From: Candidatus Heimdallarchaeum aukensis
Lineage (GTDB): Archaea > Asgardarchaeota > Heimdallarchaeia > Heimdallarchaeales > Heimdallarchaeaceae
Assembly (NCBI GenBank): GCA_021513695.1
Contig: CP084166.1
Location: forward strand, 1,024,001-1,088,000
Length of the DNA stretch: 64,000 nt
Direction: 5' to 3'
The notes beneath the pieces are model-generated. The model was given only the letters and a program-made list of their open reading frames with translations. It had not been told where the DNA came from and made no database searches. Both the position numbers and the translations under genes were made by a program. Below are positions 6,625 through 28,250 of the stretch, piece after piece. Position 1 is the first letter of the stretch, and every line of letters begins with the position of its first letter.

Positions 6625-6666
6625 TTTGAATATTATTCTTTACTTTTTTCTAGCTCTAATCCTCTC
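6625..6666. repeat. Copy 1 of a 42-bp direct repeat, tttgaatattat[t/c]ctttacttttttc[t/c]agctctaa[t/c]cctctc.
   Basis: It is 39/42 identical to 9084..9125. All three mismatches are T/C transitions. Confidence 0.8.
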
Positions 6667-6901: not shown

Positions 6902-7354
6902 TTATTGTATAGAATCTATGAACCTCTTTAAATCCTCTTCTGGTAAATCAGTATATTTCTTATATCTCTTGAATTTTTTACTGAAGAATTTTATATCAAC
7001 ATAAATTTGTATTTTCTCTTTGCCTTCAATTTGTTTTCTGTCTGTTACAGGAAAAGTTGCCCAATATAACTTGTATTCTTTTGAATGCTTAAGTTCATAT
7101 TGTTGTTGTTTTGGTCTTATCTTTCCTTGATACTCAACACTATCAATTATCATTTTTATGTCCAACAGAAACATGAGTGTAGAAGCAGTTCCAGCATTAA
7201 TTATGTAAAGTCCCCATTCTTTTGCTTGTGGGTTGAATATTGGTCCAGATAAGTTTAGCGAAGCTCTTTTTGGTCTAAAGAAGGATAGGTATACTGTTAC
7301 AACTGACAGAAAAATAGATATTGTAGAGAATATTAATGAGACTACTTCTGTCAT
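6902..7354 (-). CDS. Hypothetical protein with an N-terminal transmembrane helix, 150 aa.
   Basis: ORF with hydrophobic N-terminus VVSLIFSTISIFLSVVTVYLSFF and no recognisable motif. It lies inside the direct-repeat-bracketed cassette. Confidence 0.4.
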   Translation of the reverse strand: MTEVVSLIFSTISIFLSVVTVYLSFFRPKRASLNLSGPIFNPQAKEWGLYIINAGTASTLMFLLDIKMIIDSVEYQGKIRPKQQQYELKHSKEYKLYWATFPVTDRKQIEGKEKIQIYVDIKFFSKKFKRYKKYTDLPEEDLKRFIDSIQ

Positions 7355-7589: not shown

Positions 7590-8933
7590 TTATTCCTCAT
7601 GAAGTAAAGGTGTTTCTAAAAGGACATTTGTTAAGTCGATATTGTTAGGGTTTATTTTTTTTGGATAAACAAAAGAGAAGTGGCAGACGTAAGATTTGTT
7701 GTTTCTTATTATTTTGATCCAAACATTTTCTGGTTTTTCCATTATTATTCTTAACATCCATGATGTATTTTCTTCTGATACTCTAAGCAAGGCATAAAGA
7801 GTTCTTTTTTTTAATTCTAGTGTCTTATACTTTTCGAATTTTTCTTTTAACTGTTCTGCGTTCCCCCAAAAAAGGTTGGGAAAAACTTTTTCATCTTTAT
7901 CAAATACTATTGTTATCTCTTTTATTTTATTGTACTCTGAAATATCTTTCAAGATTTCCTTCTTTTCATCAATAGGGATTCTTTGTTGAATACCTCTAGA
8001 TTTTCTTAAAATTTGATCGAGGAGAAACCATATTGAATTGTCCATATATTTAATAAACGAATTAATTTCCATTTTAAATGCAACTTCTGTTTTTTGTATT
8101 TCTACATTACCTTTTTTATTTATCCAACCGTTTATTTTAAAATAAGAAAAACGAGGATCGACATATTCGAAAGATTGTTTGGGTGGAAAGGTTTTTCCAT
8201 TTTTTCTTGCCAAAGTTATTGCATCTTCTATCCATAATTTGAAATTGGTATTTGCTGACCTTGCGGGAATTTTGTCAATAATAACCCATATCTCATCGTT
8301 ATTGAAATCCAGAACTTTTTTACCACTATGTGTAACAGTATTACGTAAGTATAGAAACACACTGAATGCAAGTGATGGATTGATATATTTATCTGAATAG
8401 GGCTCGTAATGTCTAATTAGTTCATCAAAAATACGTTCATACCTATATCGTTTTAATTCGGGAAGATTATTTAAATACGCTTCTGTGAATCTTGAAGTTA
8501 GTTCCAAAAGTTCCAGACCAGCTGAAACATATGTTTCAAAGAGACATATAAAAAGGAACTTTATAGTTGGTATTTTAGTCCAATCAAATCGTATTTGATA
8601 ATACTCTATTTGGTCTCTTACTAATTGGAAGTACGCAAGTCTATATTTAATGCTGTTTAATGTTTCAATATACCTTCCTTTTTTCACTAATTCATTAATA
8701 TGAAAAACTAGTAAACTGTAGTCTCTTGATTCGTTATGTGCTTCCAGATAGTATGAAAACATACTCAAAACGCCAAGACTTGTATCAAGAACATGCCGAG
8801 AAATACTAATTTCTTTTTTTTCTTTTTTTTCTTTTAACGAATTAAAAAACTCATATTCGTTAAGCAAAATTTTTAACAAAAGTTCATGAGATTCTTTACT
8901 TTCTATTTCTTGCTTATCCTTATTTTGATTCAT
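7590..8933 (-). CDS. Hypothetical protein, 447 aa.
   Basis: Long ORF inside the direct-repeat-bracketed cassette. No motif recognised by eye. Confidence 0.5.
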   Translation of the reverse strand: MNQNKDKQEIESKESHELLLKILLNEYEFFNSLKEKKEKKEISISRHVLDTSLGVLSMFSYYLEAHNESRDYSLLVFHINELVKKGRYIETLNSIKYRLAYFQLVRDQIEYYQIRFDWTKIPTIKFLFICLFETYVSAGLELLELTSRFTEAYLNNLPELKRYRYERIFDELIRHYEPYSDKYINPSLAFSVFLYLRNTVTHSGKKVLDFNNDEIWVIIDKIPARSANTNFKLWIEDAITLARKNGKTFPPKQSFEYVDPRFSYFKINGWINKKGNVEIQKTEVAFKMEINSFIKYMDNSIWFLLDQILRKSRGIQQRIPIDEKKEILKDISEYNKIKEITIVFDKDEKVFPNLFWGNAEQLKEKFEKYKTLELKKRTLYALLRVSEENTSWMLRIIMEKPENVWIKIIRNNKSYVCHFSFVYPKKINPNNIDLTNVLLETPLLHEE

Positions 8934-9083: not shown

Positions 9084-9125
9084 TTTGAATATTATCCTTT
9101 ACTTTTTTCCAGCTCTAACCCTCTC
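9084..9125. repeat. Copy 2 of the 42-bp direct repeat.
   Basis: It matches 6625..6666. It is immediately followed by the CT-rich tract 9126..9300. Confidence 0.8.
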
Positions 9126-9500: not shown

Positions 9501-10637
9501 ATGATGGAAATAAACAAAATTTATCTTAAAGATTGTATAGAAGGTATGAAGGAACTTCCTGAAGATAGCATAGATTTAATATTTGCAGATCCACCATATA
9601 ATCTTCAATTGAAAAATGAATTATATCGACCTAATCAGTCATTAGTGGATGCTGTAAATGATGAATGGGATAAATTTTCATCATTTGAAGAGTACGATGA
9701 TTTTACAAAAAAGTGGTTATCAGAATGTAGGAGGGTGTTAAAAAAAACAGGTTCTATATGGGTAATAGGGTCGTATCACAATATATTTAGAATCGGAAAA
9801 ATAATGCAAGATTTAGGTTTCTGGATATTAAATGATATCATTTGGATAAAAACAAACCCTATGCCAAATTTTAGAGGTACTAGATTTAATAATGCACATG
9901 AAACTCTGATTTGGGCTTCGAAAAATGAAAAAGCTAAACCTACTTTTCATTATAAAGCTATGAAGGTATTTAATAATGATAAACAAATGCGAAGTGATTG
10001 GTATATTCCAATTTGTATAGGAAAAGAAAGGTTGAAATTAAACGGAAAAAAATTACATTCTACACAAAAACCTGAAGCATTGCTATATAGAATAATAATA
10101 TCAACATCAAATGTAAATGATATAGTGCTTGATCCTTTTATGGGTTCAGGTACTACAGCTGCAGTAGCAAAGAAACTAAGAAGGAATTTTATTGGTTTTG
10201 AAACAAATGAAATATATGTAAAAGCAGCAAGAGAGAGAGTTGTTAAAGTCATACCCATGGATCCTGACATTTTGGATTATAAAGTGGAAAAAAAACCACC
10301 AAAAGTTCCTTTTGGTACTTTAGTAGAACATAATTATATTAAAGCTGGAGATTGGCTTTATTCAAAAGATATGAGATATAAAGCAATAATAAAAGCAAAT
10401 GGGTCAATTGAATATCAAGGTAAAAACGGTTCTATTCATAAAATTAGTGCTCAAATTTTAAATAAAAAAGCAAATAATGGATGGGATTTTTGGTATGTAA
10501 AAGAAAACGATAATCTTGTATCGATTGATACTATTAGAAGAAATTATGCAAGTAAAAACATGAATTATATGAATGATGAAATAGATATGAGAAATAAAAA
10601 AGTAACAGACAAACTTTTAACTAATTACTTGGAATAA
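9501..10637 (+). CDS. CcrM/M.HinfI-family beta-class N6-adenine DNA methyltransferase (probable GANTC specificity) with the CcrM-type C-terminal domain.
   Basis: Motif IV DLIFADPPYNLQL precedes motif I VLDPFMGSGTTAAVAKKL. Near-colinear matches to Caulobacter CcrM as I recall it include WVIGSYHNIFRIG, LGFWILNDIIWIKTNPMPNFRGTRFNNAHETLIWASK, KQMRSDW, HSTQKPEALLYRII, and C-terminal PKVPFGTLVE...GSIHKISAQIL...NGWDFWYV. Confidence 0.9.
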   Translation: MMEINKIYLKDCIEGMKELPEDSIDLIFADPPYNLQLKNELYRPNQSLVDAVNDEWDKFSSFEEYDDFTKKWLSECRRVLKKTGSIWVIGSYHNIFRIGKIMQDLGFWILNDIIWIKTNPMPNFRGTRFNNAHETLIWASKNEKAKPTFHYKAMKVFNNDKQMRSDWYIPICIGKERLKLNGKKLHSTQKPEALLYRIIISTSNVNDIVLDPFMGSGTTAAVAKKLRRNFIGFETNEIYVKAARERVVKVIPMDPDILDYKVEKKPPKVPFGTLVEHNYIKAGDWLYSKDMRYKAIIKANGSIEYQGKNGSIHKISAQILNKKANNGWDFWYVKENDNLVSIDTIRRNYASKNMNYMNDEIDMRNKKVTDKLLTNYLE

Positions 10638-10642
10638 TCTTC

Positions 10643-11512
10643 GTGCTTACTAATTATCTTCCCTATGAAGTTTTTAAAAGAATATTAACAAAGACAATCT
10701 TTCAAAATGCTAAAATAAGTTTATTAGAAAAAGTTGCTAAATATCCTTCAAGATATACAGGTTTATTTAGGCCTACCAAACCTAAATTAAAATTAATCCA
10801 GAACATTACTCAATCAAATGAAATTCTATTTGGCGATGCTTTTGAGATCATAATTAATGAATATTTGAATAGATTAGGTTTCTCTCCAATTAAAAAAAAT
10901 TATTCCTATAATGGAAATGACTTAATGTTTGATCAGATTGTAGGAAAAGAAAATACTATTATTTACATAGAACAAAAAATAAGAGATGATCATGATTCAA
11001 CAAAAAAAAGAGGTCAAATAGAAAATTTTGAGAAAAAGGGTGAATTATTATTGAAACTATATCCTGATTTCAAAATTACTGGTATAATGTATTTTATAGA
11101 CCCAAATTTAAAGAAAAATCGAAGATATTATATGCAAGAATTACAAAGAATAAGTACTCAATTTAATTTTGAAACTCATCTCTTTTATGGAAAAGAGTTT
11201 TTTGAATGGATAGGAAAAGATGAAATCTGGTTAGAAATAACAAGCTATTTATCAAAGTGGAAAGAAGAGATACCTGATTTTCCCACAATTAATTTTGATG
11301 AAAATCCCGAAGAATCTTTTGAGGAAATCAAGCATCTACAACCTAATTTACTGATAAAGCTTCTAAGAAATGATGCAATATGTAAGGAGATTTTTCCCGA
11401 ATTGTTCCCGGAAAAAACGACATTAAATCTACTTCTGGAATACTATATTCATGAAAGAGAAAAAAATAAGACTAATACAATGGTTATTGAACATTTAAAA
11501 AAAGTGTTGTGA
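10643..11512 (+). CDS. Putative Type II restriction endonuclease cognate to the CcrM-like methyltransferase.
   Basis: GTG start 6 nt after the methyltransferase stop. A candidate PD-(D/E)xK core lies at DLMFDQIVGKENTIIYIEQKIRDD (D...ExK). No other homology recognised. Confidence 0.45.
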   Translation: MLTNYLPYEVFKRILTKTIFQNAKISLLEKVAKYPSRYTGLFRPTKPKLKLIQNITQSNEILFGDAFEIIINEYLNRLGFSPIKKNYSYNGNDLMFDQIVGKENTIIYIEQKIRDDHDSTKKRGQIENFEKKGELLLKLYPDFKITGIMYFIDPNLKKNRRYYMQELQRISTQFNFETHLFYGKEFFEWIGKDEIWLEITSYLSKWKEEIPDFPTINFDENPEESFEEIKHLQPNLLIKLLRNDAICKEIFPELFPEKTTLNLLLEYYIHEREKNKTNTMVIEHLKKVL

Positions 11513-12322
11513 AAAAAAATCTAAAATCACAAAAAAGATCTATATAATTGTACGATTTTTTGTTCAAAAAAAAACTATCACCGTTTGATTGACATGTTAT
11601 AAAAATAGTTTCTGAAGAAAAACCTTTACATCCATTAACTCTCAGATGCTTTATACCATTATTTTGAAATAGATACTACATGCTTGAATTAAAATGAATT
11701 TCTGGACTAGTTGATTTTCCTTTCTTAATTATAAATTATATAATTTTCCTAATTGAATTGAGAGATAATTTTTCTTTTTCAAACCAAGCATGATCTATTA
11801 TAGGAGGTTTTAAACGGAGAAGATTCAAACTTTGGATATATATTCTACATATATTATAAATATTGTTTGATATTCATCATTTGAGTTTCTCAATAAAAGA
11901 TTATTCCATATTTTAGTTTCTAGTTTGAAGATTATGAATTATTTAATAAATGTCTTAAATTCGGGATACCTTTCTTTCATATTTTCCTCAGAATCATGTA
12001 ATGGAATTTGTAGTGTTCCTTTTACTAATATTCTATATTCCTCAAGTTTAAGAATATGATTTGATTATAGCAGTGTGCCATTACTTGTTATGTTTGTTGT
12101 TATTTTTTTCGATAAATGTAGAGATTCTGGTAAAGAAATAATGTTTTCAGTTATGAATTGTATATTATCATGAAATCTAACCTTCTTAATTTAACTCAAA
12201 TTAATTAAGTAGTAAAGATAATAAAAGAAGGTATCTAAATGTTTATTGCGGAGATTTATTATAGGGTTTTTAATTTTCATCTCCCACATCGAATAATACG
12301 CATTTATCAATAAATCCTTATA

Positions 12323-13342
12323 TTAATTAGAGCAATATGAAGTTTTATTTGTGAAAATTTCAGGATCATCTAGTTCTCTCAATCTTTTAAGTGTAACACT
12401 TTTCCATTTATCATAAAAATCAACTAAAATACCTTCTTTTTCCTTTAATGTTGGTTTTCCTGTATCATCATCCATAATAAATTCAAATCCGTAATCAATC
12501 TTAAAATTAAATTGATCTGTATGCAAAACTCTTTCATGAGGAAACTTAATATCGTTATCCAAAGATGAACAAAAATTATAATGTCGAACTTCAATATGAA
12601 TTGATGAGTTTGAATATAAACCAAGCCAGTCCATTATATTTTTCTTTGTTGATTGAGGATTATATCTATTTGCTTTCGGTGTTGTAGTACAAATAATAAA
12701 ATTGCCATTTCTTATATTCTCCTTTTCAAATTGTTTTACTAACCAATTTAATGTTTTATAGTGTCGCTTATTATTAACTAAATTTACACCAAGATATCTG
12801 TCCACAATCATTACTTCCTTTGCAAATCTGAATATCTTTTTGATAAATCTTGAATGCACTTCTGTTAAATTATTTAATTCTGCTAAGTTTAATGATGTAT
12901 TCTGTATTTTATTGTAGAAATCTATTTCTGTAATTAATTCCTCTGATACATAGCTACTACTCAATTTTCCAATTTCACACTTATTTCTACAATTATTGTA
13001 AGGAAGTATTATCCAATCTGGATTTTCTCTGCTTTGAATTTCACAATAAGCTATACATTCATCTTTTTTTTTCTTTCCTTCAATTTTAATTTCAATTATT
13101 CTTCTATTATTTTGCATATTCGAAAGCATTTCTTCTATGATGAGTCTTTCTTCTATTGGTATAAGTGAAAGGGTTTTTGATTTAATAGGTAAACTAAAAC
13201 CTTCTGGTTTTAGAAGTATACCGTTTTTTCTAAGGGAAATCAATAAAGAAACTAATATTTTAGAACGATACATAATAAGCGTAGAATTTTCAGAATTGTC
13301 ATCTAAAATTTTAGGAGATAATACAAATGTCTGTACCGTCAT
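12323..13342 (-). CDS. Partner protein of the ABC ATPase, 339 aa. It carries a Cys4 element with a possibly degenerate HNH-like scaffold.
   Basis: Its start overlaps the upstream stop (ATGA, 13339-13342). ECIAYCEIQSRENPDWIILPYNNCRNKCEIGK has Cx3C...DWIILP...Cx3C, reminiscent of the HNH DHIIP/CxxCN arrangement but with W in place of H. Confidence 0.4.
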   Translation of the reverse strand: MTVQTFVLSPKILDDNSENSTLIMYRSKILVSLLISLRKNGILLKPEGFSLPIKSKTLSLIPIEERLIIEEMLSNMQNNRRIIEIKIEGKKKKDECIAYCEIQSRENPDWIILPYNNCRNKCEIGKLSSSYVSEELITEIDFYNKIQNTSLNLAELNNLTEVHSRFIKKIFRFAKEVMIVDRYLGVNLVNNKRHYKTLNWLVKQFEKENIRNGNFIICTTTPKANRYNPQSTKKNIMDWLGLYSNSSIHIEVRHYNFCSSLDNDIKFPHERVLHTDQFNFKIDYGFEFIMDDDTGKPTLKEKEGILVDFYDKWKSVTLKRLRELDDPEIFTNKTSYCSN

Positions 13343-15249
13343 TCAAATAGCTCCTTATAACTTAGATCAAAGAAATCATCTGGCCATTCATTTATAAAAT
13401 TACCATGTTTGTCAAATTCGATAGGAACTATATTAGCTCCTAGTTTTGTTTTTTCAACAAATATAATTGATATAAGTTTTGGACTTATTTTCTTTTTCCT
13501 AATGAGTTTTTTGATTCGTAGAATTAATTGTTGACTATGAGTTTCAATTATAAATTGTTTTGATAAATTCCTTTTAACATGTTCAACAAAAAATTCTCCC
13601 AATTCAGCTTGCAATCTTGGATTAAGATGTATCTCTGGTTGTTCTATTAAAAGAATTTCATTTGGTTTATTTGACATTATCGTTTGTACAAGAATGGGGA
13701 GAACCTGACTCACACCAAATCCAATATCCGGTAATGCCACCGGATATTTTGTGATATTATCTTCGAATTTCAAGGAATATACCCCTGATAGTTTGTCTTT
13801 ATCTGCTGTATATGAGACTGTGTAACCGATTTTTAGTTTTTTCAACCAATTATTTAGTTCATTTATTTTATTTTTATATGAATAGATAAAATCTGCTGTT
13901 TTTGATCCTGAAACACCTACATTAATAGGTCTACTCCCTCCAAATATGTAATATCGAGATGGTTTATCTCTAAGAGGACCAATAAAAGTAATGCTCTTCA
14001 TCAATTCAATGAATTGATTTCTATTCTCTTCAGTCACGTCATAATCAAAATATAAATTCTTTTTTCCATGTTCAAGTTTAAAAAACGTGTTGATTTTAAG
14101 TAATTCACCTTTAATTGGATTACCAACAAATTCAATAGATAAATTATGATGAATAAACTTAATTAATTTGTTAATTAGATCTGTTTCTATCTCCGATGGG
14201 TCTTTAAACATAATAATTCTAAATAATTTCTCAATTTTCATATTAATTGATTCTTCAATTAGAATCCTAAAATCATGATCGATTAAAATATCATCTTTTA
14301 TTTCATTTAAACCAATTTCAACCTTTTTGCAAATTTTTTCAATTATTTTATCTTTTTTTAACAGAAAAAATTTGTTTTTTTCTAATTCTCTTCTAATTTT
14401 TTCTACTATATTTTTAATTTCAATTTTTTTCGCTTGACTATTTTCCTGATAAATTTTCAATATAGTTTCTATAGGAACTTTAATATTAATCGTAGGAATT
14501 TTATCGTTATCAAAATGAATCTTCTTTTCAATTTTTTCTTCTATATCAAAGACATCAATTTTAAATTTCTCTTCATATGCAGAATAAGAGATTATAAATG
14601 GTGTATCAATGTTTTCAACAATTGTGATTTTCTTGTATCCTCCAGATATTGACTCTCTCAAAAACGGTAAAAGAATCATCGGTATAACTCTTTCTGTACT
14701 TATTTTTGAAAGAGAACAAGTATATTTTATCCGCTGATAAATCCTAGAATTTTCTGTTTTGCAATATACTAATTTTGCTGAAATTAATGATTTTTCAATC
14801 TTTTTGCCATAATTTCTAGATATTCCCCATATTATTTTATCTAAAAGAATGTAAGGTCTCTCTTCAATCTTTTTTGAAATGTATGTTAAGTTGATTTTGA
14901 ATTTTTTAAAAATCCTTTCCTTGTATGGTGAAATATGAAGATAATCTGAGGATCGCCACTGTAACCCAATTTCAACTCTTTTTCTAGTATCATGACCAAA
15001 AACAATTTCTTCGAAAGGTCCAATATCAACATAAGTCCCTTGATGTAGAAGAACATTATTTGGGTCATTGTCTTCTATAGTTTGTTTTAAGGCTAAAAGT
15101 GATTTCAAAATAGATGATTTTCCACTACTATTTTCTCCAAATATCAGTGTAATCGGTTTACATGGTATTCTAGAGCCCTTTTTTCCAAAGGCTTTAAAAT
15201 TTCTTAAATAAATTTCAGTTAACATGAACAAACACCAAGTTTCTTTCAT
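13339..15249 (-). CDS. ABC/OLD-type ATPase of the AAA_15/AAA_21 kind, similar to the ATPases of Septu PtuA, PARIS AriA and AbiL.
   Basis: N-terminal LTEIYLRNFKAF...ITLIFGENSSGKSSILKSL is the Walker A. C-terminal ILLIEQPEIHLNPRLQ is the Walker B/D-loop, and FIIETHSQQLI is the H-loop. A long insert separates the two halves. Confidence 0.8.
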   Translation of the reverse strand: MKETWCLFMLTEIYLRNFKAFGKKGSRIPCKPITLIFGENSSGKSSILKSLLALKQTIEDNDPNNVLLHQGTYVDIGPFEEIVFGHDTRKRVEIGLQWRSSDYLHISPYKERIFKKFKINLTYISKKIEERPYILLDKIIWGISRNYGKKIEKSLISAKLVYCKTENSRIYQRIKYTCSLSKISTERVIPMILLPFLRESISGGYKKITIVENIDTPFIISYSAYEEKFKIDVFDIEEKIEKKIHFDNDKIPTINIKVPIETILKIYQENSQAKKIEIKNIVEKIRRELEKNKFFLLKKDKIIEKICKKVEIGLNEIKDDILIDHDFRILIEESINMKIEKLFRIIMFKDPSEIETDLINKLIKFIHHNLSIEFVGNPIKGELLKINTFFKLEHGKKNLYFDYDVTEENRNQFIELMKSITFIGPLRDKPSRYYIFGGSRPINVGVSGSKTADFIYSYKNKINELNNWLKKLKIGYTVSYTADKDKLSGVYSLKFEDNITKYPVALPDIGFGVSQVLPILVQTIMSNKPNEILLIEQPEIHLNPRLQAELGEFFVEHVKRNLSKQFIIETHSQQLILRIKKLIRKKKISPKLISIIFVEKTKLGANIVPIEFDKHGNFINEWPDDFFDLSYKELFE

Positions 15250-15317
15250 TCACACTCTTGATGAATTCTTTACAAATTTATGTAATAAAAATAAAAACTT
15301 TTCTGGAATATCTATGT

Positions 15318-18300
15318 TTAATTTTCACTAAGATATTTTATTATTTTAGGAAGTAGGAAAACATTTTTTCTTAATGTTGAAAAACTTAATGCTTCTCCTA
15401 GAAGTGTGTGAACTTGTTTAGGTATTTTTCCAAACATTGGATGACTAACTACATATCCATAGGTAAATGATTTGAAATTCCCACTTTCTATTATTACACG
15501 CATTGGCTCTTCCAACAAGCTCATATCACCAAAGTAAATGCTTGATAATGGTGATGATAATGCTCTTAAACGTTCAATAGTTGCTTTTTCAATATCTTCA
15601 CTCAAAAAAATATCACTATCTTCTATTATATCAAGAGTTATTAATAAATATGAATCACCAGCAAATATAATTGGTGGACTTAAAAGTTTACTAAATTTTT
15701 TTGCTAATGAAAATGCATTATTTGTTGAGTTGATAAAATGATATAAGCTTGGATATTTTCTACTTTTTTCATCTTTTTTTACATTTCTTCCATAATAAGT
15801 TCTGACCATCTTTTCTAAGTAGTTTAATCCTTTATTTATTGTGTATAAGTTTCGAGGTTTTTCCAGATAATTAAGTATTTCTTGTTTATCTGTTTTGTCA
15901 TAAGCTTTTACTGTTACACGAAAACCTTTTGCTATTTGTTGATTAGTGACTTTATAGAATAGATAAGAAGGTATCGTCATATCATTCCATCTACCTGCTT
16001 CATTAAATGTAAGTATAAATTCAGGAGAGGGATATAATCTGAAATGGTTTAATGCTGTTTTTATAGATGGAAAATAATTTTTCAAAAAATCATCTAAATA
16101 GATATTATCAACTGAAAATGCTCTTTTACTAACTCTTCCAAATAGACTGAATTTTCTTTTAGTTCTTTCCGAAATCTTGCTTCTGCTAAAAACTGGTAGG
16201 ACATGTTCATTATTGTTGATTAGTATATCTCTAATAAAACTTCTTAACTGATGAAATTTGATATTTTGATCTTTTAGAGTGGCATTTTTGTTCAAAGCAG
16301 AAATCATAGACACTAATCTTGGCTTCAAATCTGTTTCTTCTCCTCTCATCCTTTTAATTACTTGCCTAAAATATTCTAGATTGATCATAGAATCGAAATA
16401 AGTTGTTGAGCCATAGTCTGTTTTTAAGGGGAAAGGAGGAAGGATAATTAAAATTTCATGCCATGAATATGTAGTTCCAAATGCTAATGAAGAGGTTCCT
16501 ACTATATTTTTTTTAGGTGTTTCTTCTATTAATAATGTGTCACGAGAATCGTGAGTAATAGAAACTGCATCATAATTGTTTAAATGGAGGTATTCTACTA
16601 ATGAATCTACAAACTGTTTATTGTTAACATAAAAAATTACTTTACCCTCTTGTAAATATTTTTCAAATGATTTTTTTCTATTGTCAATTCGTGATTTTTT
16701 TACAAGCTTGTCTAATATTTCAAAAATTTTTTTAAAATTTATTTCCTCTTCATATTTACCCTCACAAATAAATGATGCTGCACAATAATCAATATTGAAA
16801 TTTAAGAGATATCTCAGAAAAATACCTTTAATCGGAGTATTAATTATTTTAAATTCCTCTGGTTCTTGAATGTCTTCATTAAAATTAGTTATTTGAAATT
16901 GTGTCATCCATTTTTTTGAATTTGGATCAACTAATGTGTTCAACATGGAAATTACTAATTTCATACTTGTGATAGATGCATCAGTAATTACAAAGCGAGG
17001 AACATTTATGTTATTATTTACCATTAATCGATTCCTTGCTTCTATTAGTAAATCAATAAAATTTTTTGCAACTGTTGGTCCAGAATTAGTTAATTCATCA
17101 AAGATGAACATATATGTCTTTGTGAATAGTAATTTCCAATTGTATGATTGTTTTAGAAAATAATCTAAAGCTTGGGAAGATACTAATATAACTTTTTGTC
17201 CTTGTTTCTCTAGTGCTTTTTTCAATCGATTTCCTGTTTCACTGAAAATTGTTTCATACCCCTTAAGTGTTATTGGATCTCTTATTAACTCTTTTTCTCT
17301 TTTACCAATAATTAATTCTAAATGGACATTTTTTTCTATATCATTTTTGATTAATCTTTGAATTTTATCTTTAGTTTGTATTAAGGTTGTAATTCTTGGA
17401 CAGAAATACAGAATAGTAAAGTTTTTTTTAGTTTTTGCAAGCTTTTTAATATAATTTGCAATCACATAATTTTTTCCAACACCTTGAGATGAACCATTTA
17501 TTATTATATTATAACAATCATTGGTTAATAATTTTAGGAAGTTCTTCTCATGTTCTTTTCTTACATTTTCTATTTCGTTTCTAGTAACACTCTGTCTTTT
17601 TACGATAGAAGGTTGAATCTTCTCTTTAGTTTCAGGATAAGCTTCAATAAATTCTGTTTTTTCATCCTTCAAAATTATTTTTAACTCCTCTCCTCTAGTT
17701 CCTTCAAAAAAATACATTCTTTTATTGTTTTTTTCTTTTATTCTCATCGATATTTTTCCACTCATAAATAATTCAAAAATTCGTCTTCTTTCAAAATCTT
17801 CCAATATATATTCTTTCTTTTTACCAAATTCTGTTTCCACTATAGTACTAGGAATCAAGTTACATAGAAATCGTAATATTTTCCTTAAATCGGTTTCAGA
17901 TTTAATATGAAAAGAAGATATAGCTCCAGGTAAAACTATTTGAACTTCAATCTCACTGTTATAATTTTGAGTTTCGTTATAATATAATTGTGCATAGGAG
18001 AATACTTTTAAGTATTTCTGGAGAGCTGTTGCAATTCTGTAAAAATCTCTTGCAGGAATCTTTTTGTTCTTATGTAAATTTAGTTTTCTTAGTTTTTCCT
18101 TTGAAAAATCTTCGACAATTAATTGTTCAATATAATCTTGAAGTAATCGCTCTTTCGTCATATTTACAAAAAATATATATGATTTAATATCGCCAATACA
18201 TAAGAACTCGATTTGGTTCATTTCATAATTAAAGGCTTCCTCTTGATTGTTAGATGTTTTCTTTCTAATGATTATAAAATCAGGTTTTTTTTCCCTAAAT

Positions 18301-18779
18301 GTTGGTTCTATAAATATTTCTAATTCTGTATCTGGTTTTTTCCATTCAAGATTTGCATTTAGTAATACCGATATTGAACATTGAAATCCTGTTTTTATCA
18401 TTCTTAAGGCTGTATATCCCACTTTTTGTTCTTCCAAAATATCTGTGATTTCTCTTTCATCAATCTTTAAGTCTGTTCTAAACATTTGCCTTTTTTGAAA
18501 ATAATTTTTAAATATTAAGTACGAATCTGTGATGCTTGATTTTCTGATAAATAAATCGATTGCTTGTTCTATCTGTATTCCAATTACATTTTCAAGATAT
18601 GAATTCAACTCTATTCTATTTTCAATATCTAAAATAGGTGGTTCAATTCTTATGCCTACAAAAGGTTTAATGTTGTAGCATTTTGATTTTGACGCAATTC
18701 CAAGAAAGAATCCAAATTCAAGTGCTTCTCCATATATTAATGGTGCTATTCTATTAATTTTCTTTTCGTAATTTACCAT
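15318..18779 (-). CDS. Large (1153 aa) P-loop NTPase or helicase-like protein with a possible N-terminal PD-(D/E)xK nuclease fold.
   Basis: Central Walker A IIINGSSQGVGKNYVIANY, Walker B-like YMFIFDELTNSG, and a possible motif III at VITDASIT. The N-terminus has ELEIFIEP...KKPDFIIIRKK...EFLCIGDIKSY (E..PD...DxK-like). Its start lies 1 nt after the stop of the upstream 973-aa gene. Confidence 0.55.
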   Translation of the reverse strand: MVNYEKKINRIAPLIYGEALEFGFFLGIASKSKCYNIKPFVGIRIEPPILDIENRIELNSYLENVIGIQIEQAIDLFIRKSSITDSYLIFKNYFQKRQMFRTDLKIDEREITDILEEQKVGYTALRMIKTGFQCSISVLLNANLEWKKPDTELEIFIEPTFREKKPDFIIIRKKTSNNQEEAFNYEMNQIEFLCIGDIKSYIFFVNMTKERLLQDYIEQLIVEDFSKEKLRKLNLHKNKKIPARDFYRIATALQKYLKVFSYAQLYYNETQNYNSEIEVQIVLPGAISSFHIKSETDLRKILRFLCNLIPSTIVETEFGKKKEYILEDFERRRIFELFMSGKISMRIKEKNNKRMYFFEGTRGEELKIILKDEKTEFIEAYPETKEKIQPSIVKRQSVTRNEIENVRKEHEKNFLKLLTNDCYNIIINGSSQGVGKNYVIANYIKKLAKTKKNFTILYFCPRITTLIQTKDKIQRLIKNDIEKNVHLELIIGKREKELIRDPITLKGYETIFSETGNRLKKALEKQGQKVILVSSQALDYFLKQSYNWKLLFTKTYMFIFDELTNSGPTVAKNFIDLLIEARNRLMVNNNINVPRFVITDASITSMKLVISMLNTLVDPNSKKWMTQFQITNFNEDIQEPEEFKIINTPIKGIFLRYLLNFNIDYCAASFICEGKYEEEINFKKIFEILDKLVKKSRIDNRKKSFEKYLQEGKVIFYVNNKQFVDSLVEYLHLNNYDAVSITHDSRDTLLIEETPKKNIVGTSSLAFGTTYSWHEILIILPPFPLKTDYGSTTYFDSMINLEYFRQVIKRMRGEETDLKPRLVSMISALNKNATLKDQNIKFHQLRSFIRDILINNNEHVLPVFSRSKISERTKRKFSLFGRVSKRAFSVDNIYLDDFLKNYFPSIKTALNHFRLYPSPEFILTFNEAGRWNDMTIPSYLFYKVTNQQIAKGFRVTVKAYDKTDKQEILNYLEKPRNLYTINKGLNYLEKMVRTYYGRNVKKDEKSRKYPSLYHFINSTNNAFSLAKKFSKLLSPPIIFAGDSYLLITLDIIEDSDIFLSEDIEKATIERLRALSSPLSSIYFGDMSLLEEPMRVIIESGNFKSFTYGYVVSHPMFGKIPKQVHTLLGEALSFSTLRKNVFLLPKIIKYLSEN

Positions 18780-18780
18780 T

Positions 18781-21702
18781 TTATATCAACTTCTCCTGAA
18801 TTTTTATTCTGTTTATCCCTTTGATGAAAATACTTGGATCTAGCAACTTTTTGGAATCAGGATATGGTAGATGAAATAACCTTTTTAAACTTTCAATACT
18901 AATTCCGCCTTTTTCATCTCCGTAAATGGTTAATATTCTTGAGAATTCTTTCAAATAAGAAATAGTTTCTTCAGACGATCTTTCATATGGTATTACAGTA
19001 AAAATAAGAGACGGTTGTAAATCTTTTTTAATTTCACCCTCAAGCTTTTCTTCTCTTCTCGAACCAAAAATCAACATTCCAACTATTTTTCTCTTATCTC
19101 TTCCATTATATTTCAAAGGTTCATTAATATATATAATTAATTGTCTATTTGATTTTGACTTTGGCAGTAATTTTCCAATTTCTCTTGAAGGAGTAAAAAT
19201 AGCTTTTTCATTAAAAACAAACAATGGAATTTTTAATTGTTTATTCTTTTCAAATATCCAGTCAATAATGGTATCTTCTTTACTAAGATCACTATCTTGT
19301 ATTTTTCTATTTACAGATTCAGATATAATGTCATAAGTGCTCTCCGTTCTTGAACTATGTTTAGCTCTTATTAAAATTAGAATATCTTCTTTTGCTAATT
19401 CTGATACTATTAGTGAGGCTAATTCAAAATTTATATCGCATCCTATGTTTCCAAATGAATCTTCTATAAAGTTTTCCTCCATTACATTAATTTCTCGTTC
19501 ATCAGTTAGGTGAGCATAAGCTGCGATATTTCTTATGTATCTTTGTTCTTCTTTAATTATTTCGACCCATTTTTCTGATGAAAGAGAAAGTAATAATATA
19601 TCTTTTGTTTTTATTAATTTATCAAGAGCTTTATCATGTAGAGTATATCCCGCTGTAGAAGTATTTTTTAAGGAGTGTGAAGTAAAATACCATTCATCCA
19701 TAAATAATCTTCCAAAAGCTTTATTTATATTATGATAATTTGATAAAAACTTGTACAAATAGATACCAGGTAAAGCAATTTTTTTCTCTTTGGAAGCTGT
19801 TTGATAAGTAAATAATTCTACTTTACCTATGTTATCAAAAGTATAAAATGAAAAAGGTCCATCGAAGTATTTTAAGATTTGATTTTTTGACCATACTACA
19901 TTCCCGTTTTTTCTAATACCATCTTTTGTCATCATTTGAACATTAATACGTCTTCTTGACCTATTGATTGTACTTTTATTTTGCCAGATTTTCTTTATTA
20001 TTTGCCTAATCTCTTTTTCTTTATATTCTTTTGATAAAGAATCAAAAGAAAAGCCTTGAGAATATTCGAAATATTTTGTTTCCCATGAGTGTACTCCTTT
20101 TAATAACATATAATAAAATTCATGAAAAAGACTTCTTTTTACTTTCTTCGATAAATATGGGATAAACCAAATGTTATCTCCTCCTTTTACAAATCTAAAT
20201 TCATGATTAAGCCTTGTTAAAGATTGTTTAATATCAGGGTCATTAATTAGGTATAGTATTGCACTATCTATAACTGCCTTTAAAGATGCAAAAAATCTAT
20301 AATTGTCGTTGTTTAGTCTTTCTCTCAAATCTGTATTAATTCTTTTGTGATATATTTCAATTTCTTCTGGAAAAAATTCAGTATTTGCTATAAGATAAGT
20401 GATAAATTCTTGTAATCCATATTCTTTATCTCCATACCAGATAGATGTTTTATTTTTTTCATCAATTCCTTCATTCTTTTTTAAATAAATATTTTCATGA
20501 ATAAAAACTATCAATCTTTTTGGATTTATTTGTTTGGGAGAGATGTTTATCTTTTGAATTCTTTCTAATTTCTCTTTTTTTGCGCATAAGTAATGATCAA
20601 ATTCTGGAAATTCACAATTTTCAACAATTTCCTTTAGTTTATCAAATAATTCTTCAAAATCTTTATAACTTATTTCGTTAAAACCTAAAAGTATTGAAAA
20701 AGCGAATAATTTATCTTTAATATCTTCAACCATTTCTAAGAATTCTTGGTCATTTGTATCCATTTGTTCCATTATCCATTCTTGAAGGTTAATGAGTAAA
20801 GGCAAGATTGTTTTTTCTTTATTCCAGCCTTCTCCATATATTCTGAAACAATAAAGGTTTTTATCATAATCTTCATGAAGATTAAGAAATTTTGGGCAGC
20901 TTCCTACAGAGATTAATCCAGGAAAAGAAGGAAATGACATACCTTTGAAACTATGATTTATTATTTTCTCAAACAGAGTTTTCTCTTCAGCTGATAATTT
21001 TTTAATAAATTTATCATTCTTAAGTAAGACGGTACATTCTTTCTTAAAATCTAAATATCTGTCGTATGCAGCATTACGAACTTCTTCATTTCTAATGTAT
21101 TTTATATAATATTTTACTAATTTTTTCTGAACTGGATTATTAATAATGTTTGAAAATTGCTCTGTAGCTTTAATGGAAACTTCTTCTGCTTTTAAAGCTG
21201 TTTTAAAAAATGAAATTGGAATCTCATTTTCATGAATTTTCTCATTTGCGTTTCTAAATCTTGATTCATTTTCTTGAATTTCAATATAAGAAAAAGTAGA
21301 ACCAACTTCTTCTGATTTCCATTCATCTCGCTTTGCTTTATCCCATAATGTTGCTGGATTTTCATACTTTTTTTCTTTTTTCATTAACTCTTCTTTAATT
21401 GTGATTATAACTTTGTCGCTTATCTCTAATAATGTAGTATTAGGACTTTGGACAATTCTAGATTTTAGCTTTTTCACCAGTAACCAATTTTGTAACGAGG
21501 GATCAGATATTTCATTAATTTCTTCTAATGTATTTTGATACGCTTTGTGAACTATTCTACAAAAATCATCAAAGGGATATGTTATAGTACAAAGCATATC
21601 AAAGAATTTTTTATCCTGAATATATTCTGAAATTAATTTTGAGAAGAATATAGACCAAAATTCTTTATCTATTCCTTCTGTTAGTTTTACTAATCTAGCC
21701 AC
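18781..21702 (-). CDS. Large (973 aa) hypothetical protein, first gene of the four-gene operon.
   Basis: Uninterrupted ORF with no P-loop and no motif recognised by eye. It is preceded by a 670-bp AT-rich promoter region. Confidence 0.5.
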   Translation of the reverse strand: MARLVKLTEGIDKEFWSIFFSKLISEYIQDKKFFDMLCTITYPFDDFCRIVHKAYQNTLEEINEISDPSLQNWLLVKKLKSRIVQSPNTTLLEISDKVIITIKEELMKKEKKYENPATLWDKAKRDEWKSEEVGSTFSYIEIQENESRFRNANEKIHENEIPISFFKTALKAEEVSIKATEQFSNIINNPVQKKLVKYYIKYIRNEEVRNAAYDRYLDFKKECTVLLKNDKFIKKLSAEEKTLFEKIINHSFKGMSFPSFPGLISVGSCPKFLNLHEDYDKNLYCFRIYGEGWNKEKTILPLLINLQEWIMEQMDTNDQEFLEMVEDIKDKLFAFSILLGFNEISYKDFEELFDKLKEIVENCEFPEFDHYLCAKKEKLERIQKINISPKQINPKRLIVFIHENIYLKKNEGIDEKNKTSIWYGDKEYGLQEFITYLIANTEFFPEEIEIYHKRINTDLRERLNNDNYRFFASLKAVIDSAILYLINDPDIKQSLTRLNHEFRFVKGGDNIWFIPYLSKKVKRSLFHEFYYMLLKGVHSWETKYFEYSQGFSFDSLSKEYKEKEIRQIIKKIWQNKSTINRSRRRINVQMMTKDGIRKNGNVVWSKNQILKYFDGPFSFYTFDNIGKVELFTYQTASKEKKIALPGIYLYKFLSNYHNINKAFGRLFMDEWYFTSHSLKNTSTAGYTLHDKALDKLIKTKDILLLSLSSEKWVEIIKEEQRYIRNIAAYAHLTDEREINVMEENFIEDSFGNIGCDINFELASLIVSELAKEDILILIRAKHSSRTESTYDIISESVNRKIQDSDLSKEDTIIDWIFEKNKQLKIPLFVFNEKAIFTPSREIGKLLPKSKSNRQLIIYINEPLKYNGRDKRKIVGMLIFGSRREEKLEGEIKKDLQPSLIFTVIPYERSSEETISYLKEFSRILTIYGDEKGGISIESLKRLFHLPYPDSKKLLDPSIFIKGINRIKIQEKLI

Positions 21703-22374
21703 AAACTTCTCTCCTCATAGGTAATTGTACTAAAACTTATCTTGAATGTTAAACAATTTCTTTTTTTATTTATATAATTTTTGATAATAAATGTTTTCAT
21801 CTTTTATTCATTTATTATCTGTATTCAATAAATTATTCATGAGTTTAGTTTTATCTTTTTAATATTAATCAAAAATATGCTATATGTTTAACTTTGACGA
21901 CTTAGAGTAATCTCAAATTGTTGTTATAGTAGTTAGATTTATTTTTTATTTATATTCACCCACTAAAGTTTTATTTAACTCGCTTCAACTCTTTAAATTA
22001 AATATGTCTAGTTGATAGATACATTTTCATCCTCCTATACGCTTGAAAATACTAGATGATTCTCTAGTTTAAATTATATGGTTAATGTAAGAAGATATAC
22101 AAGTTTAAATGCCATAAAACGGAGACGTTGGCCATGAAACAAAAATAAATAGAATACTGTTGTTTTCTAAGTGCAAAGAAAAATATATAGAAGTATAAAA
22201 TACAAAAATTAGTGTAAGAGAAAAATAAGAAACTCAACAAGAATTTACAAAAAGTAGTTTAGCATAAAAAATAAGAAAGTATTTTATTATGGTGCAATTG
22301 CTAAGACATGACAAAATAATATGGTTGTTTGGTGATTTAATTAGAAAAATTTAATAACCAAAGTAATTAAAAAA

Positions 22375-27660: not shown

Positions 27661-28250
27661 CAGCTTTAATTCATTTCTCTTTACCACTGATTAATCACTT
27701 TCTCAGCAAAACCTAATAATTTGTCTACTTTAACCTCTGTTCCATCATCTAAAATGACTTTTCCAGTAAAATATCCAAAAACTTGATGTTGAACTGATTT
27801 AAAAATCAGCAAGTTTACTTTTGAATTTCTGTCTATAATGGGTTCGAAATCCATTTCAAATCTTCCATCATTGCTTGTGAATTTCCAAGGTTTCAAGTAA
27901 TCAGATTCATCTATGTGAAAAGTAATCTGATCAAGTTTGTGTCCTTTGTTATTGTAATAGAAAATGTTCTCTGTTGCTGCAGAAGTGTCACCAAAACCAT
28001 ATCCTATATTAAAACCTACAGAAACACCATCTTGTATTCCTGAAGCTGAACCCCAGTACCAGATGTCTTTATAAGGCCAAACTCCCCTTCCCCAATCCAA
28101 TACCGCAAAACTATTCTCTTTTTTAAAGCTATACTCTTTATTACCATATTTTACTGTCCCTTCAGTAGGCATACAGTTAATTTTTTGATTATAGTAGAAG
28201 CATTTAGGTTTATTTTTCCAAGGAGTGGCGATAACCATTGTATCCATGCC
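27655..28250. repeat. About 595-bp segmental duplication, the copy of 28425..29020 (roughly 85-88% identical).
   Basis: The 188-aa ORF 27681..28247 is near-identical to residues 156-343 of ORF 28450..29481. Similarity continues about 25 bp past the stop (ttaccactgattaatcactttctcagcaaa versus ttaccatcgattcatcactttctcagcaaa). Confidence 0.85.
27681..28247 (-). CDS. Truncated paralog, the C-terminal half of the downstream 343-aa protein.
   Basis: It starts MDTMVIATPWKNKPKCFYYNQKINCMPTEG, which is internal (NMDTMVIATP...) in the full-length copy. Confidence 0.6.
   Translation of the reverse strand: MDTMVIATPWKNKPKCFYYNQKINCMPTEGTVKYGNKEYSFKKENSFAVLDWGRGVWPYKDIWYWGSASGIQDGVSVGFNIGYGFGDTSAATENIFYYNNKGHKLDQITFHIDESDYLKPWKFTSNDGRFEMDFEPIIDRNSKVNLLIFKSVQHQVFGYFTGKVILDDGTEVKVDKLLGFAEKVINQW

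What the first reader, a model, noticed from the sequence alone, without database searches (positions are those of the whole stretch)
12323..21702. Four-gene minus-strand operon (973-aa, 1153-aa NTPase, ABC ATPase, Cys4 partner): candidate undescribed defense system
Four co-oriented genes are packed almost without gaps. Genes A and B are separated by 1 nt, B and C by 68 nt, and C and D overlap by ATGA. The operon follows a 670-bp AT-rich promoter region. It sits between a restriction-modification system and housekeeping genes, in an island that also holds toxin-antitoxin pairs, HEPN, a TGT-like gene and IS elements. Gene A (973 aa) has no recognisable motif. Gene B (1153 aa) combines a possible N-terminal PD-(D/E)xK fold with an unusual P-loop (GSSQGVGKN) and a DELT Walker B. 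Gene C is an OLD/ABC-type ATPase. Gene D is a Cys4 protein. I cannot map this combination onto BREX, DISARM, Druantia, Zorya, Hachiman, Lamassu, Wadjet, Dnd/Dpt or Avs from motif content. It may be a new multi-component system, or a novel large two-gene module sitting next to a Septu-like pair.
Basis: partly seen in the sequence, partly recalled or inferred. Interest (0 to 1): 0.85.

Follow-up and report, generated by a model that had tools for sequence, protein, structure and literature searches.

The report
Two adjacent archaeal defence-type gene pairs
The four packed genes are real, but they are two separate gene pairs: a rare, undescribed, archaea-only pair (a large orphan protein plus a nuclease-helicase) that is a candidate new defence system, next to a Menshen-like ATPase with an unknown partner.

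Summary
The window comes from Candidatus Heimdallarchaeum aukensis, an Asgard archaeon.

The block is not one conserved four-gene system. Genes A (973 aa) and B (1153 aa) recur as a tightly coupled pair in 12 other distinct loci, from Heimdall-like contigs, Ca. Lokiarchaeum ossiferum, Archaeoglobus and Thermococcus/Pyrococcus. Identity falls as low as about 21-25%. None of those loci holds C or D.

- **B** is a nuclease-helicase. It has invariant PD...GDxK nuclease motifs, a full set of SF2 helicase motifs (Pfam ResIII) and a conserved C-terminal domain.
- **A** is an orphan family. Only 17 clusters were found among 1.84 billion representative proteins, with no match in Pfam, PADLOC, NCBIfam or PDB.
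- **C** is an ABC ATPase with a DUF3696 tail, of the NsnB/HEC-03B/PDC-M55A type. In bacteria these ATPases always carry an overlapping downstream partner gene.
- **D** sits in that partner position but matches no known partner. Its Cys4 motif is not conserved in its only homologue.

A-B lies beside restriction-modification, Mokosh-like, PDC-S15-like or Lamassu-like genes in several loci. In Thermococcales it lies among housekeeping genes. It is a plausible but unproven new archaeal defence cassette. Both AlphaFold models failed (pLDDT below 40), so the fold of A is unknown.

The parts
18781..21702 (-). Gene A (973 aa): founding member here of an orphan archaeal protein family (727-1048 aa). 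It is always followed by gene B.
   Evidence: ORF. The 100% hit is a 'hypothetical protein' of Ca. Heimdallarchaeum aukensis. Exhaustive HMMER found 17 clusters among 1.84e9 representatives. The 14-sequence alignment A3 shows conserved motifs GKSFPSFPG, YGEGWDK, KATxDSAILY, HDYYYxLLDG, NVQ, SLKNTSTAGY and GDEKGG..LKRLFxLPYPD. There are no significant Pfam, PADLOC, NCBIfam or PDB hits.
15318..18779 (-). Gene B (1153 aa): nuclease-helicase, translationally coupled to A.
   Evidence: Pfam ResIII at 28.5 bits against a cut-off of 22.5, matched by 5 of 6 relatives. The 9-sequence alignment A5 is collinear over the full length. No PADLOC model matches any of the 9 members, apart from one spurious hit at E=0.0027.
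18180..18332 (-). Predicted PD-(D/E)xK nuclease core of B (about residues 150-200): E158, P166-D167, G196-D197-x-K199.
   Evidence: P166, D167, G196, D197 and K199 are invariant in 9 of 9 family members. E158 is E in 7 and Q in 2. The beta-beta-beta-alpha pattern in the AF2 secondary structure fits, but that model is low-confidence and the fold is not verified.
16335..17552 (-). SF2 helicase/translocase core of B (about residues 410-815): motifs I (S430-x-QGxGK436), Ia (P461-R462), II ((D/E)E562-L-x-N565-S566), III (D600-x-S-x-T604), V (N758..GT..AFG768) and VI (E802..RQ..KRxRG813).
   Evidence: These columns are invariant in A5. Pfam ResIII covers residues 412-563. Foldseek on the poor model returned only SF2 helicases, which is weak and generic support.
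15250..15317 (-). B-C spacer. It holds TTTTTATTTTTATT, which is like both an archaeal oligo-T terminator and a TATA box. This is the likely boundary between two transcription units.
   Evidence: Sequence read. This is inference only; no transcript data were available.
13339..15249 (-). Gene C (636 aa; probable true start at 15225): ABC ATPase with a C-terminal DUF3696 helix, of the NsnB / HEC-03B / PDC-M55A clade. It carries an insertion of about 300 aa after the Walker A lobe.
   Evidence: PADLOC NsnB 1.7e-58, HEC-03B 1.9e-52, PDC-M55A 9.3e-51. Pfam AAA_21, AAA_15 and DUF3696 at 25.8 bits against a cut-off of 22. The homologue in L004 is 60% identical.
12323..13342 (-). Gene D (339 aa): orphan partner of C in the position of NsnC / HEC-03A / PDC-M55B. 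It overlaps C by ATGA and is the presumed effector.
   Evidence: ORF. Only one homologue exists (P0009, 48% identity), and it too overlaps a C homologue by 4 nt. There are no PADLOC, Pfam, NCBIfam or PDB hits. hhalign against PDC-M55B and HEC-03A examples gave probability below 1%.
21703..22374 (-). 672-nt, 22.5% GC region upstream of A. It has a TATA-like AAATTATATAAATA about 65 nt before the GTG start and a GGAGAG ribosome-binding site 8 nt before it.
   Evidence: The promoter assignment is inferred.
9501..11512 (+). Neighbouring restriction-modification-type pair (N6_N4 methyltransferase with RAMA domain, plus a 289-aa orphan gene). This is context, not part of either module.
   Evidence: Pfam N6_N4_Mtase 3.1e-70 and RAMA 1.2e-14.

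Best explanation
The 9.4-kb block is two independent two-gene modules lying side by side in a low-GC variable island of Ca. Heimdallarchaeum aukensis.

Module 1 (A-B) is a rare cassette restricted to archaea.
- B is shown by motifs and profile matches to be an SF2 (ResIII-type) ATPase. It has an N-terminal PD-(D/E)xK nuclease motif set and a conserved C-terminal domain.
- A is a large orphan protein that is always encoded immediately upstream, with a start/stop gap of -26 to +5 nt.
- Inferred mechanism: A and B form a complex. B uses ATP to translocate on DNA and cuts it with its PD-(D/E)xK site. A acts as the target-recognition or licensing subunit that restrains B until foreign DNA or an infection cue appears.
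- The defence role is inferred from neighbourhood and patchy distribution. It has not been shown.

Module 2 (C-D) is a Menshen-type core without NsnA.
- C is an NsnB-like ABC ATPase. In Menshen models its DUF3696 tail holds the downstream effector.
- D occupies the effector position with a new, unclassified sequence.
- Inferred mechanism: ATP binding or hydrolysis by a C oligomer controls the release or activation of D.
For: A-B pairing:
- Found in L001, L002, L003, L005, L006/L007, L008, L009, L010, L011, L012, L017 and L018.
- Both genes diverge in step: 60/61, 47/51, 44/50, 37/39, 27/27, 24/27 and about 21-24/23-27 % identity for A/B.
- Junctions are -26 to +5 nt.
- tblastn with C and D found neither gene in any of these loci.

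Distribution: Heimdallarchaeum, Lokiarchaeum ossiferum, Archaeoglobus sp., and Thermococcus sp. EP1, 21S7 and CX2, T. chitonophagus and Pyrococcus kukulkanii. Only 17 clusters at 50% identity were found among 1.84e9 representatives.

Defence neighbours:
- Restriction-modification in the window.
- Restriction-modification plus Mokosh-like MkoA (4.9e-90) and a PLD gene in L001.
- PDC-S15-like FRG/UDG and NERD genes in L008.
- LmuB/mad3-like ATPases in L010.
- A Cas4-like nuclease in L002.
- An Mrr_cat gene 4 kb away in L012.

Three Thermococcales loci lie in three different housekeeping neighbourhoods. That fits independent insertions.

B motifs are invariant and ResIII scores above the gathering cut-off.

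C-D:
- PADLOC and Pfam hits for C.
- Bacterial DUF3696 ATPases are each followed by an overlapping partner identified as HEC-03A or PDC-M55B.
- The C-D pair, with its 4-nt overlap, is conserved in L004.
- The published Menshen model has the NsnB DUF3696 tail binding a polymorphic NsnC (PMC12065111).
Against: - No experiment, transcript data or usable structure supports any function. Both AF2 models have pLDDT below 40.
- A has no recognisable domain, so its role is a guess.
- In Thermococcales and in L009 the pair lies among housekeeping genes with no defence neighbours. That fits a non-defence role equally well.
- In the only other C-D locus (L004) the contig ends inside C. Whether A-B lies upstream there is unknown, so the independence of C-D from A-B is shown only from the A-B side.
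- L010 also has ABC ATPase genes directly upstream of A-B on the same strand. A looser functional link between A-B and ABC ATPases is therefore not excluded.
- The nuclease assignment rests on motifs, not on a fold.
Confidence: 0.6

Rival explanations
1. All four genes form one system. A-B plays the sensor role that NsnA plays in Menshen and signals to the C ATPase, which controls effector D.
For: The genes are co-oriented and tightly packed, and all four have the same GC of about 0.27. The order (large upstream proteins, NsnB-like ATPase, overlapping partner) mirrors nsnA-nsnB-nsnC (PMC12065111). No NsnA/DUF262 gene is nearby that could otherwise complete a Menshen system. L010 has ABC ATPase genes next to A-B.
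Against: Twelve other distinct A-B loci lack C and D. Several end in convergent or housekeeping genes directly after B. DUF3696 ATPase-plus-partner pairs occur without any A-B in bacterial plasmids and are catalogued as two-gene candidates HEC-03 and PDC-M55. The 68-92 nt B-C spacer carries an oligo-T/TATA-like tract. The ATPases in L010 are of a different clade, since tblastn with C found no hit.
Confidence: 0.1
2. A-B is not immunity but an accessory DNA repair, recombination or replication-restart module: a nuclease-helicase with a loader or regulator.
For: In Thermococcales and L009 the pair sits among housekeeping genes such as UbiD/P5CR, aIF5B/CrcB, diphthamide synthase and argininosuccinate synthase. 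Fused nuclease-helicases are common in repair; Dna2, AddAB and Hef are examples from general knowledge.
Against: The distribution is extremely sparse and patchy across three archaeal lineages, and the pair is absent from most relatives. The chromosomal position differs in each Thermococcales genome. Repeated adjacency to restriction-modification, Mokosh-like, PDC-S15-like and Lamassu-like genes in Asgard loci. Sequence divergence is fast, down to about 21-25% identity within archaea.
Confidence: 0.2
3. A-B is cargo or machinery of a mobile genetic element, for example a replication or transfer helicase with an initiator, rather than a host defence module.
For: Patchy distribution, a low-GC island, and a small HNH gene ending 2 nt upstream in Lokiarchaeum. 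Different insertion sites among Thermococcales.
Against: No integrase, transposase or tRNA lies next to the pair in the loci examined, and no flanking direct repeats or tRNA genes were found in the window. No relatives were found in IMG/VR viral contigs or PLSDB plasmids. In several loci only the two genes are inserted.
Confidence: 0.1

Closest known systems
Menshen (NsnA-NsnB-NsnC) and the related PADLOC candidates HEC-03 and PDC-M55. This is the closest match for C-D.
   Same: C matches NsnB, HEC-03B and PDC-M55A at 1e-50 to 1e-58. It has the DUF3696 tail and the GxG signature in place of SGG. A partner gene overlaps its stop codon, as in the bacterial examples (PMC12065111).
   Different: There is no NsnA (ParB/DUF262) gene. 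D matches neither NsnC, HEC-03A nor PDC-M55B. C has an extra insertion of about 300 aa. The host is an Asgard archaeon.
Type I restriction enzyme motor subunit HsdR. This is the closest architecture for B.
   Same: The domain order is the same: N-terminal PD-(D/E)xK nuclease, then an SF2 ResIII-type motor, then a C-terminal domain, at a length of about 1000-1170 aa. It works with separate subunits that provide specificity.
   Different: hhalign against EcoKI HsdR gives only 15.7% probability, restricted to the first RecA lobe. There is no HsdM or HsdS partner, and A has no methyltransferase hit.
Two-gene helicase/nuclease defence systems: Hachiman (HamA nuclease plus HamB helicase), Druantia type III (DruH plus DruE) and Nhi.
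   Same: The logic is the same: a helicase, a nuclease and a large accessory protein, encoded as a coupled pair in defence islands.
   Different: No PADLOC model of these systems matches A or B in any of 14 and 9 family members. Here the nuclease is fused to the helicase. The A family has no relatives outside archaea.
Septu, PARIS and Gabija/OLD ABC-ATPase systems
   Same: An ABC ATPase of the AAA_15/AAA_21 type regulates a partner effector. AriA aligns over C at 2.4e-22.
   Different: PtuA and GajA models match only short P-loop or signature stretches. C has no Toprim domain. D has no HNH (PtuB) or DUF4435 (AriB) match.

Membership tests
Menshen (NsnABC) | NsnB: ABC ATPase with a C-terminal DUF3696 helix | tested here: met
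   PADLOC NsnB 1.7e-58. Pfam AAA_21 and AAA_15. DUF3696 at 25.8 bits against a cut-off of 22.
Menshen (NsnABC) | NsnA: ParB/DUF262 sensor gene upstream of NsnB | tested here: not met
   No DUF262 or ParB hit in A, B or any ORF of at least 100 aa within 1-25 kb. The gene upstream of C is helicase B.
Menshen (NsnABC) | NsnC: downstream effector with an inactive PIN-like N-terminal domain and a nuclease C-terminal domain | tested here: inconclusive
   D has the right position and overlaps C. It has no NsnC hit in PADLOC. NsnC is highly polymorphic (PMC12065111). No fold is available for D.
HEC-03 (PADLOC candidate) | HEC-03B ATPase plus HEC-03A partner (about 160-180 aa) | tested here: not met
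   C hits HEC-03B at 1.9e-52. D does not hit HEC-03A, and hhalign against an Aeromonas HEC-03A gave 0.1% probability.
PDC-M55 (PADLOC candidate) | PDC-M55A ATPase plus PDC-M55B partner (about 315-350 aa) | tested here: not met
   C hits PDC-M55A at 9.3e-51. D and P0009 do not hit PDC-M55B. BLASTP and hhalign against a Bacillus PDC-M55B were negative.
Septu (PtuA/PtuB) | PtuA ATPase and an HNH nuclease PtuB | tested here: not met
   PtuA matches only residues 10-54 of C (7.8e-8). D has no HNH or PtuB hit.
OLD / Gabija GajA | ABC ATPase fused to a Toprim nuclease domain | tested here: not met
   GajA models match only short stretches (residues 10-54 or about 527-578 of C). No Toprim hit in Pfam.
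SF2 helicases (ResIII/DEAD-like) | Motifs I, Ia, II, III, V and VI in two RecA-like lobes | tested here: met
   ResIII scores above the gathering cut-off and is matched by 5 of 6 relatives. All motifs are invariant in 9 sequences.
PD-(D/E)xK nucleases | Catalytic D ... (D/E)-x-K on an alpha-beta-beta-beta-alpha-beta core | tested here: inconclusive
   PD(166-167) and GD-x-K(196-199) are invariant in 9 of 9. No Pfam nuclease hit. The AF2 model is too poor to confirm the fold.
Type I restriction-modification (HsdR with HsdM/HsdS) | HsdR homology over the nuclease and motor domains, with methyltransferase and specificity subunits as partners | tested here: not met
   hhalign probability is 15.7%, restricted to the first RecA lobe. 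A has no methyltransferase or specificity-subunit (HsdS) hit.
Hachiman / Druantia / DISARM / Zorya / BREX / Dpd / Mokosh helicase components | Match to the system's helicase and partner profiles | tested here: not met
   A: 0 of 14 family members hit any PADLOC model. B: 0 of 9, apart from one spurious oMTase hit at E=0.0027. NCBIfam gave nothing for A or B.

The most novel reading that the evidence does not exclude
A-B is a new, archaea-specific antiviral or anti-plasmid system. In it a previously unseen 700-1050-aa protein family (A) senses invaders and licenses a dedicated nuclease-helicase (B). It is shared by Asgard archaea, Thermococcales and Archaeoglobales and has no bacterial counterpart. 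That would make it one of very few immune modules apparently native to archaea.
Probability: 0.45. Interest if true: 0.75.

Novelty: new variant of a known kind. Interest (0 to 1): 0.55.

Why it matters
Surveys report that archaea carry few defence systems beyond CRISPR and restriction-modification, and that nearly all known systems were defined in bacteria (PMC12988326). A conserved archaea-only pair built on an orphan protein family would add to the small set of candidate archaeal immune modules.

The pair is also directly testable. It occurs in cultured organisms (Thermococcus chitonophagus, Pyrococcus kukulkanii, Ca. Lokiarchaeum ossiferum) that are related to genetically tractable Thermococcus strains.

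For annotation, the result warns against calling compact co-oriented blocks in defence islands single systems. It also extends Menshen-type NsnB ATPases to Asgard archaea, with a new partner.

Tried and rejected
- **AlphaFold2.** B (3-sequence alignment) gave pLDDT 35.7 and A (4-sequence alignment) gave 38.7. Neither is usable.
- **Foldseek on those models.** B returned generic SF2 helicases at TM about 0.2. A returned noise, mostly Fab fragments. I do not count these as evidence for A.
- **PDB sequence and profile searches** for A, B, C, D, A3, A4 and A5 gave nothing meaningful.
- **hhalign.** The B family against EcoKI HsdR gave 15.7%, first RecA lobe only. The A family against the B family showed no relation. 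D against PDC-M55B and HEC-03A examples was negative.
- **tblastn** of A, B and D against PLSDB plasmids found no match.
- **IMG/VR scans** with the A and B alignments found nothing.
- **GTDB representative genomes.** These scans need near-exact peptide patterns. They missed Thermococcus genomes known to carry the pair, so the negative result is not informative.
- **Literature.** Searches for locus tags and accessions found no paper. The source-genome paper does not describe this locus.
- **Integrated element.** I looked for flanking direct repeats and tRNA genes around the block and found none.
- **Dpd system.** There are no NCBIfam or PADLOC Dpd hits for A or B, and no TGT hit nearby.

Full report
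**Observation.** The junctions are also as stated. A and B are 1 nt apart, B and C are 68 nt apart, and C and D overlap by ATGA. The 672-nt region upstream of A has 22.5% GC. The four genes have about 27% GC and the window has 29.8%. On one side lies an N6_N4 DNA methyltransferase with a RAMA domain plus a 289-aa gene. On the other side lie HAD hydrolase, CAAX protease and beta-lactamase-fold genes. Exact hits identify the source as Candidatus Heimdallarchaeum aukensis, an Asgard archaeon with a 3.08-Mb genome, where A and D are 'hypothetical protein' and B is 'DEAD/DEAH box helicase family protein'. The paper describing that genome does not discuss this locus.

**What the proteins are.** A and D match nothing in PADLOC, Pfam, NCBIfam or PDB sequences. 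B matches Pfam ResIII above its gathering cut-off (28.5 against 22.5 bits) and nothing else. C is an ABC ATPase (AAA_21, AAA_15) with the short C-terminal DUF3696 domain. Its best PADLOC matches are NsnB of Menshen (1.7e-58), HEC-03B (1.9e-52) and PDC-M55A (9.3e-51). Matches to AriA, GajA and PtuA are much weaker or partial. All profile matches to C begin at residue 9-10, so its real start is probably the ATG at 15225.

**Is it one system?** A and B have very few close relatives among 5.8 billion proteins: four clusters for A and three for B. An exhaustive HMMER search with the A alignment against 1.84 billion representatives found only 17 clusters, several of them fragments. I recovered the genomic context for 12 other distinct loci (13 fetched; L007 is a near-duplicate of L006). 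They are L001, L002, L003 and L017 (Heimdall-like), L005 (the cluster that includes an Archaeoglobus sp. protein), L006/L007, L008 (Ca. Lokiarchaeum ossiferum, closed genome CP104013.1), L009, L010, L011 (Thermococcus sp. EP1), L012 (Thermococcus chitonophagus, in the same 90% cluster as Pyrococcus kukulkanii) and L018.

In every one of them a B homologue follows the A homologue directly. The start/stop distance ranges from -26 to +5 nt. The B alignments are collinear over the full length even at 23-27% identity. A and B diverge in step, with A/B identities of 60/61, 47/51, 44/50, 37/39, 27/27 and 24/27 %. tblastn with C and D found neither gene in any of these loci. In L001, L006, L009, L011, L012 and L018 the gene after B is convergent or plainly unrelated, for example argininosuccinate synthase, P5C reductase, DUF190/CrcB or an ABC transporter.

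The conserved unit is therefore A-B. C-D is not part of it.

The C-D pair is itself conserved, with the same 4-nt overlap, in one other contig (L004; C 60% and D 48% identity). That contig ends inside C, so its upstream side is unknown. Bacterial plasmid relatives of C ('DUF3696 domain-containing protein') are each followed by an overlapping small gene, which PADLOC identifies as HEC-03A (Aeromonas) or PDC-M55B (Bacillus). No A-B-like genes are nearby. The 68-nt B-C spacer (about 92 nt if C starts at M9) contains TTTTTATTTTTATT. That tract resembles both an archaeal oligo-T terminator and a TATA box. This is suggestive only.

**Anatomy of B.** In a nine-sequence alignment spanning Asgard, Archaeoglobus-like and Thermococcales members, the invariant columns include:
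- P166-D167 and G196-D197-x-K199, a textbook PD...(D/E)xK arrangement preceded by E158 (E in 7 sequences, Q in 2);
- helicase motif I, S430-x-Q-G-x-G-K436;
- motif Ia, P461-R462;
- motif II, (D/E)-E562-L-x-N-S;
- motif III, D600-x-S-x-T604;
- motif V, N758..G-T...A-F-G768;
- motif VI, E802..R-Q..K-R-x-R-G813;
- several positions in the roughly 330-aa C-terminal domain.

B is thus an apparently active SF2 translocase fused to a probable PD-(D/E)xK nuclease. The domain order resembles HsdR of type I restriction enzymes. However, hhalign against EcoKI HsdR gave only 15.7% probability, confined to the first RecA lobe. No PADLOC helicase model matches any of the nine members; the single hit, to an orphan methyltransferase model at E=0.0027, is spurious.

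**Anatomy of A.** The 14-sequence alignment shows a variable, mostly helical N-terminal third and a conserved alpha/beta remainder. Its sharp motifs are GKSFPSFPG, YGEGWDK, L-x-AN, KATxDSAILY, N-S-x-F-H-D-YYY-x-LLDG, NVQ, SLKNTSTAGY and a C-terminal GDEKGG-x-S-x-x-GLKRLF-x-LPYPD ... RPS-x-FIKG. The invariant polar residues (N440, D479, H527, Y530, Y531, Q589, S677, E930, R941, D949) suggest a binding or catalytic site. None of the 14 members significantly matches Pfam or PADLOC. The family profile hits nothing in the PDB and is unrelated to B. AlphaFold2 with the shallow alignments that were allowed failed for both proteins (pLDDT 38.7 and 35.7). Foldseek on those models is uninformative for A and only generically 'SF2 helicase' for B.

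**Context and distribution.** A-B is absent from PLSDB plasmids and from IMG/VR contigs. All named members are archaeal 'hypothetical proteins'.

In Asgard-type loci it sits among defence genes:
- restriction-modification in the window;
- restriction-modification plus a Mokosh-like MkoA (4.9e-90) with a PLD gene in L001;
- a small HNH gene, a PDC-S15-like FRG/UDG gene and a NERD protein in L. ossiferum;
- LmuB/mad3-like ABC ATPases in L010;
- a Cas4-like nuclease in L002.

In Thermococcales the pair is inserted at three different housekeeping neighbourhoods, with an Mrr-type nuclease 4 kb away in one of them. Sparse, patchy occurrence, variable position and defence neighbours make an accessory conflict module the best reading. 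They do not prove it.

**Mechanism.** These parts are shown:
- obligate A-B gene coupling;
- B carrying a complete SF2 motif set and an invariant PD-(D/E)xK motif set;
- C being an NsnB-clade ABC ATPase with a DUF3696 tail;
- D occupying the partner slot downstream of C.

These parts are inferred:
- A and B form a complex in which A supplies target recognition or licensing, and B translocates on DNA and cleaves it. The logic resembles type I restriction, Hachiman or Druantia III, without homology to them.
- By analogy with the published Menshen model (PMC12065111), a C oligomer holds D through the DUF3696 tail and releases or activates it on ATP binding or hydrolysis. No NsnA (ParB/DUF262) gene is present, so C-D is not a canonical Menshen system.
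- D's four cysteines are only partly conserved. Its H-E-R-x-L-H-T-D/N stretch is the only candidate catalytic motif, and that is speculative.

**Rivals.**
- A single four-gene system, with A-B as sensor for C-D, is not excluded for this genome. It is contradicted as a conserved architecture (confidence about 0.1).
- A repair or recombination role for A-B fits the housekeeping neighbourhoods in Thermococcales but not the sparse distribution (about 0.2).
- A mobile-element function lacks any integrase, transposase, repeat or tRNA signature and any viral or plasmid relatives (about 0.1).

**Verdict.** A-B is an undescribed, archaea-restricted nuclease-helicase cassette with an orphan partner family. 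I class it as a new variant of the known kind 'helicase-nuclease defence-island module', with its defence role unproven. C-D is a new-partner variant of the Menshen/HEC-03/PDC-M55 ATPase modules. Interest is 0.55. The system is novel, cleanly delimited and testable in cultured archaea, but A's function is unknown and no phenotype has been shown.

Noticed in passing
window 6625-6666 and 9084-9125: A 42-nt direct repeat (93% identical) brackets a 2.4-kb segment. The segment holds two orphan minus-strand ORFs, 6902-7354 (150 aa) and 7590-8933 (447 aa), neither with a Pfam hit.
   Followed up: no
window 27681-28247 and 28450-29481: These are two adjacent DUF2804 genes. One is full length (343 aa). 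The other covers only the C-terminal half of the family (188 aa, profile positions 154-339). It looks like a partial tandem duplicate or a truncated paralogue.
   Followed up: no
L008 (Ca. Lokiarchaeum ossiferum CP104013.1) 9759-9998 and 16762-18693: A 79-aa HNH_3 gene ends 2 nt before the A-like gene. A 643-aa FRG+UDG gene (PDC-S15-like, 1e-18) starts 20 nt after the B-like gene on the same strand. These may be lineage-specific accessory genes of the A-B cassette.
   Followed up: partly
L010 2-3385: The A-family gene (P0023) is split by a frameshift. The 189-aa ORF at 2816-3385 is its N-terminus (hmmsearch 1.2e-7). Two LmuB/mad3-like ABC ATPase genes lie directly upstream on the same strand. 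This is a second case of ABC ATPases next to A-B.
   Followed up: partly
L001 16495-21534: A Mokosh-like pair lies convergent to A-B in a Heimdall-like metagenome contig. It consists of an MkoA-like helicase (4.9e-90) and a PLD-domain protein, with a 370-aa orphan gene between them. A second MkoA-like helicase gene lies upstream.
   Followed up: partly
window 15225-15249: The annotated start of C is probably 8 codons too early. All ATPase profile matches start at residue 9-10, which corresponds to the ATG at 15225.
   Followed up: partly
window 11513-12322: An 810-nt AT-rich stretch with no ORF of at least 80 aa lies between the stop of D and the end of the convergent 289-aa gene. It has no Rfam match and its content is unexplained.
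   Followed up: no
window 30461-32524: A EutA-like gene (5.4e-141) carries an N-terminal extension of about 210 aa that is not covered by the family profile.
   Followed up: no
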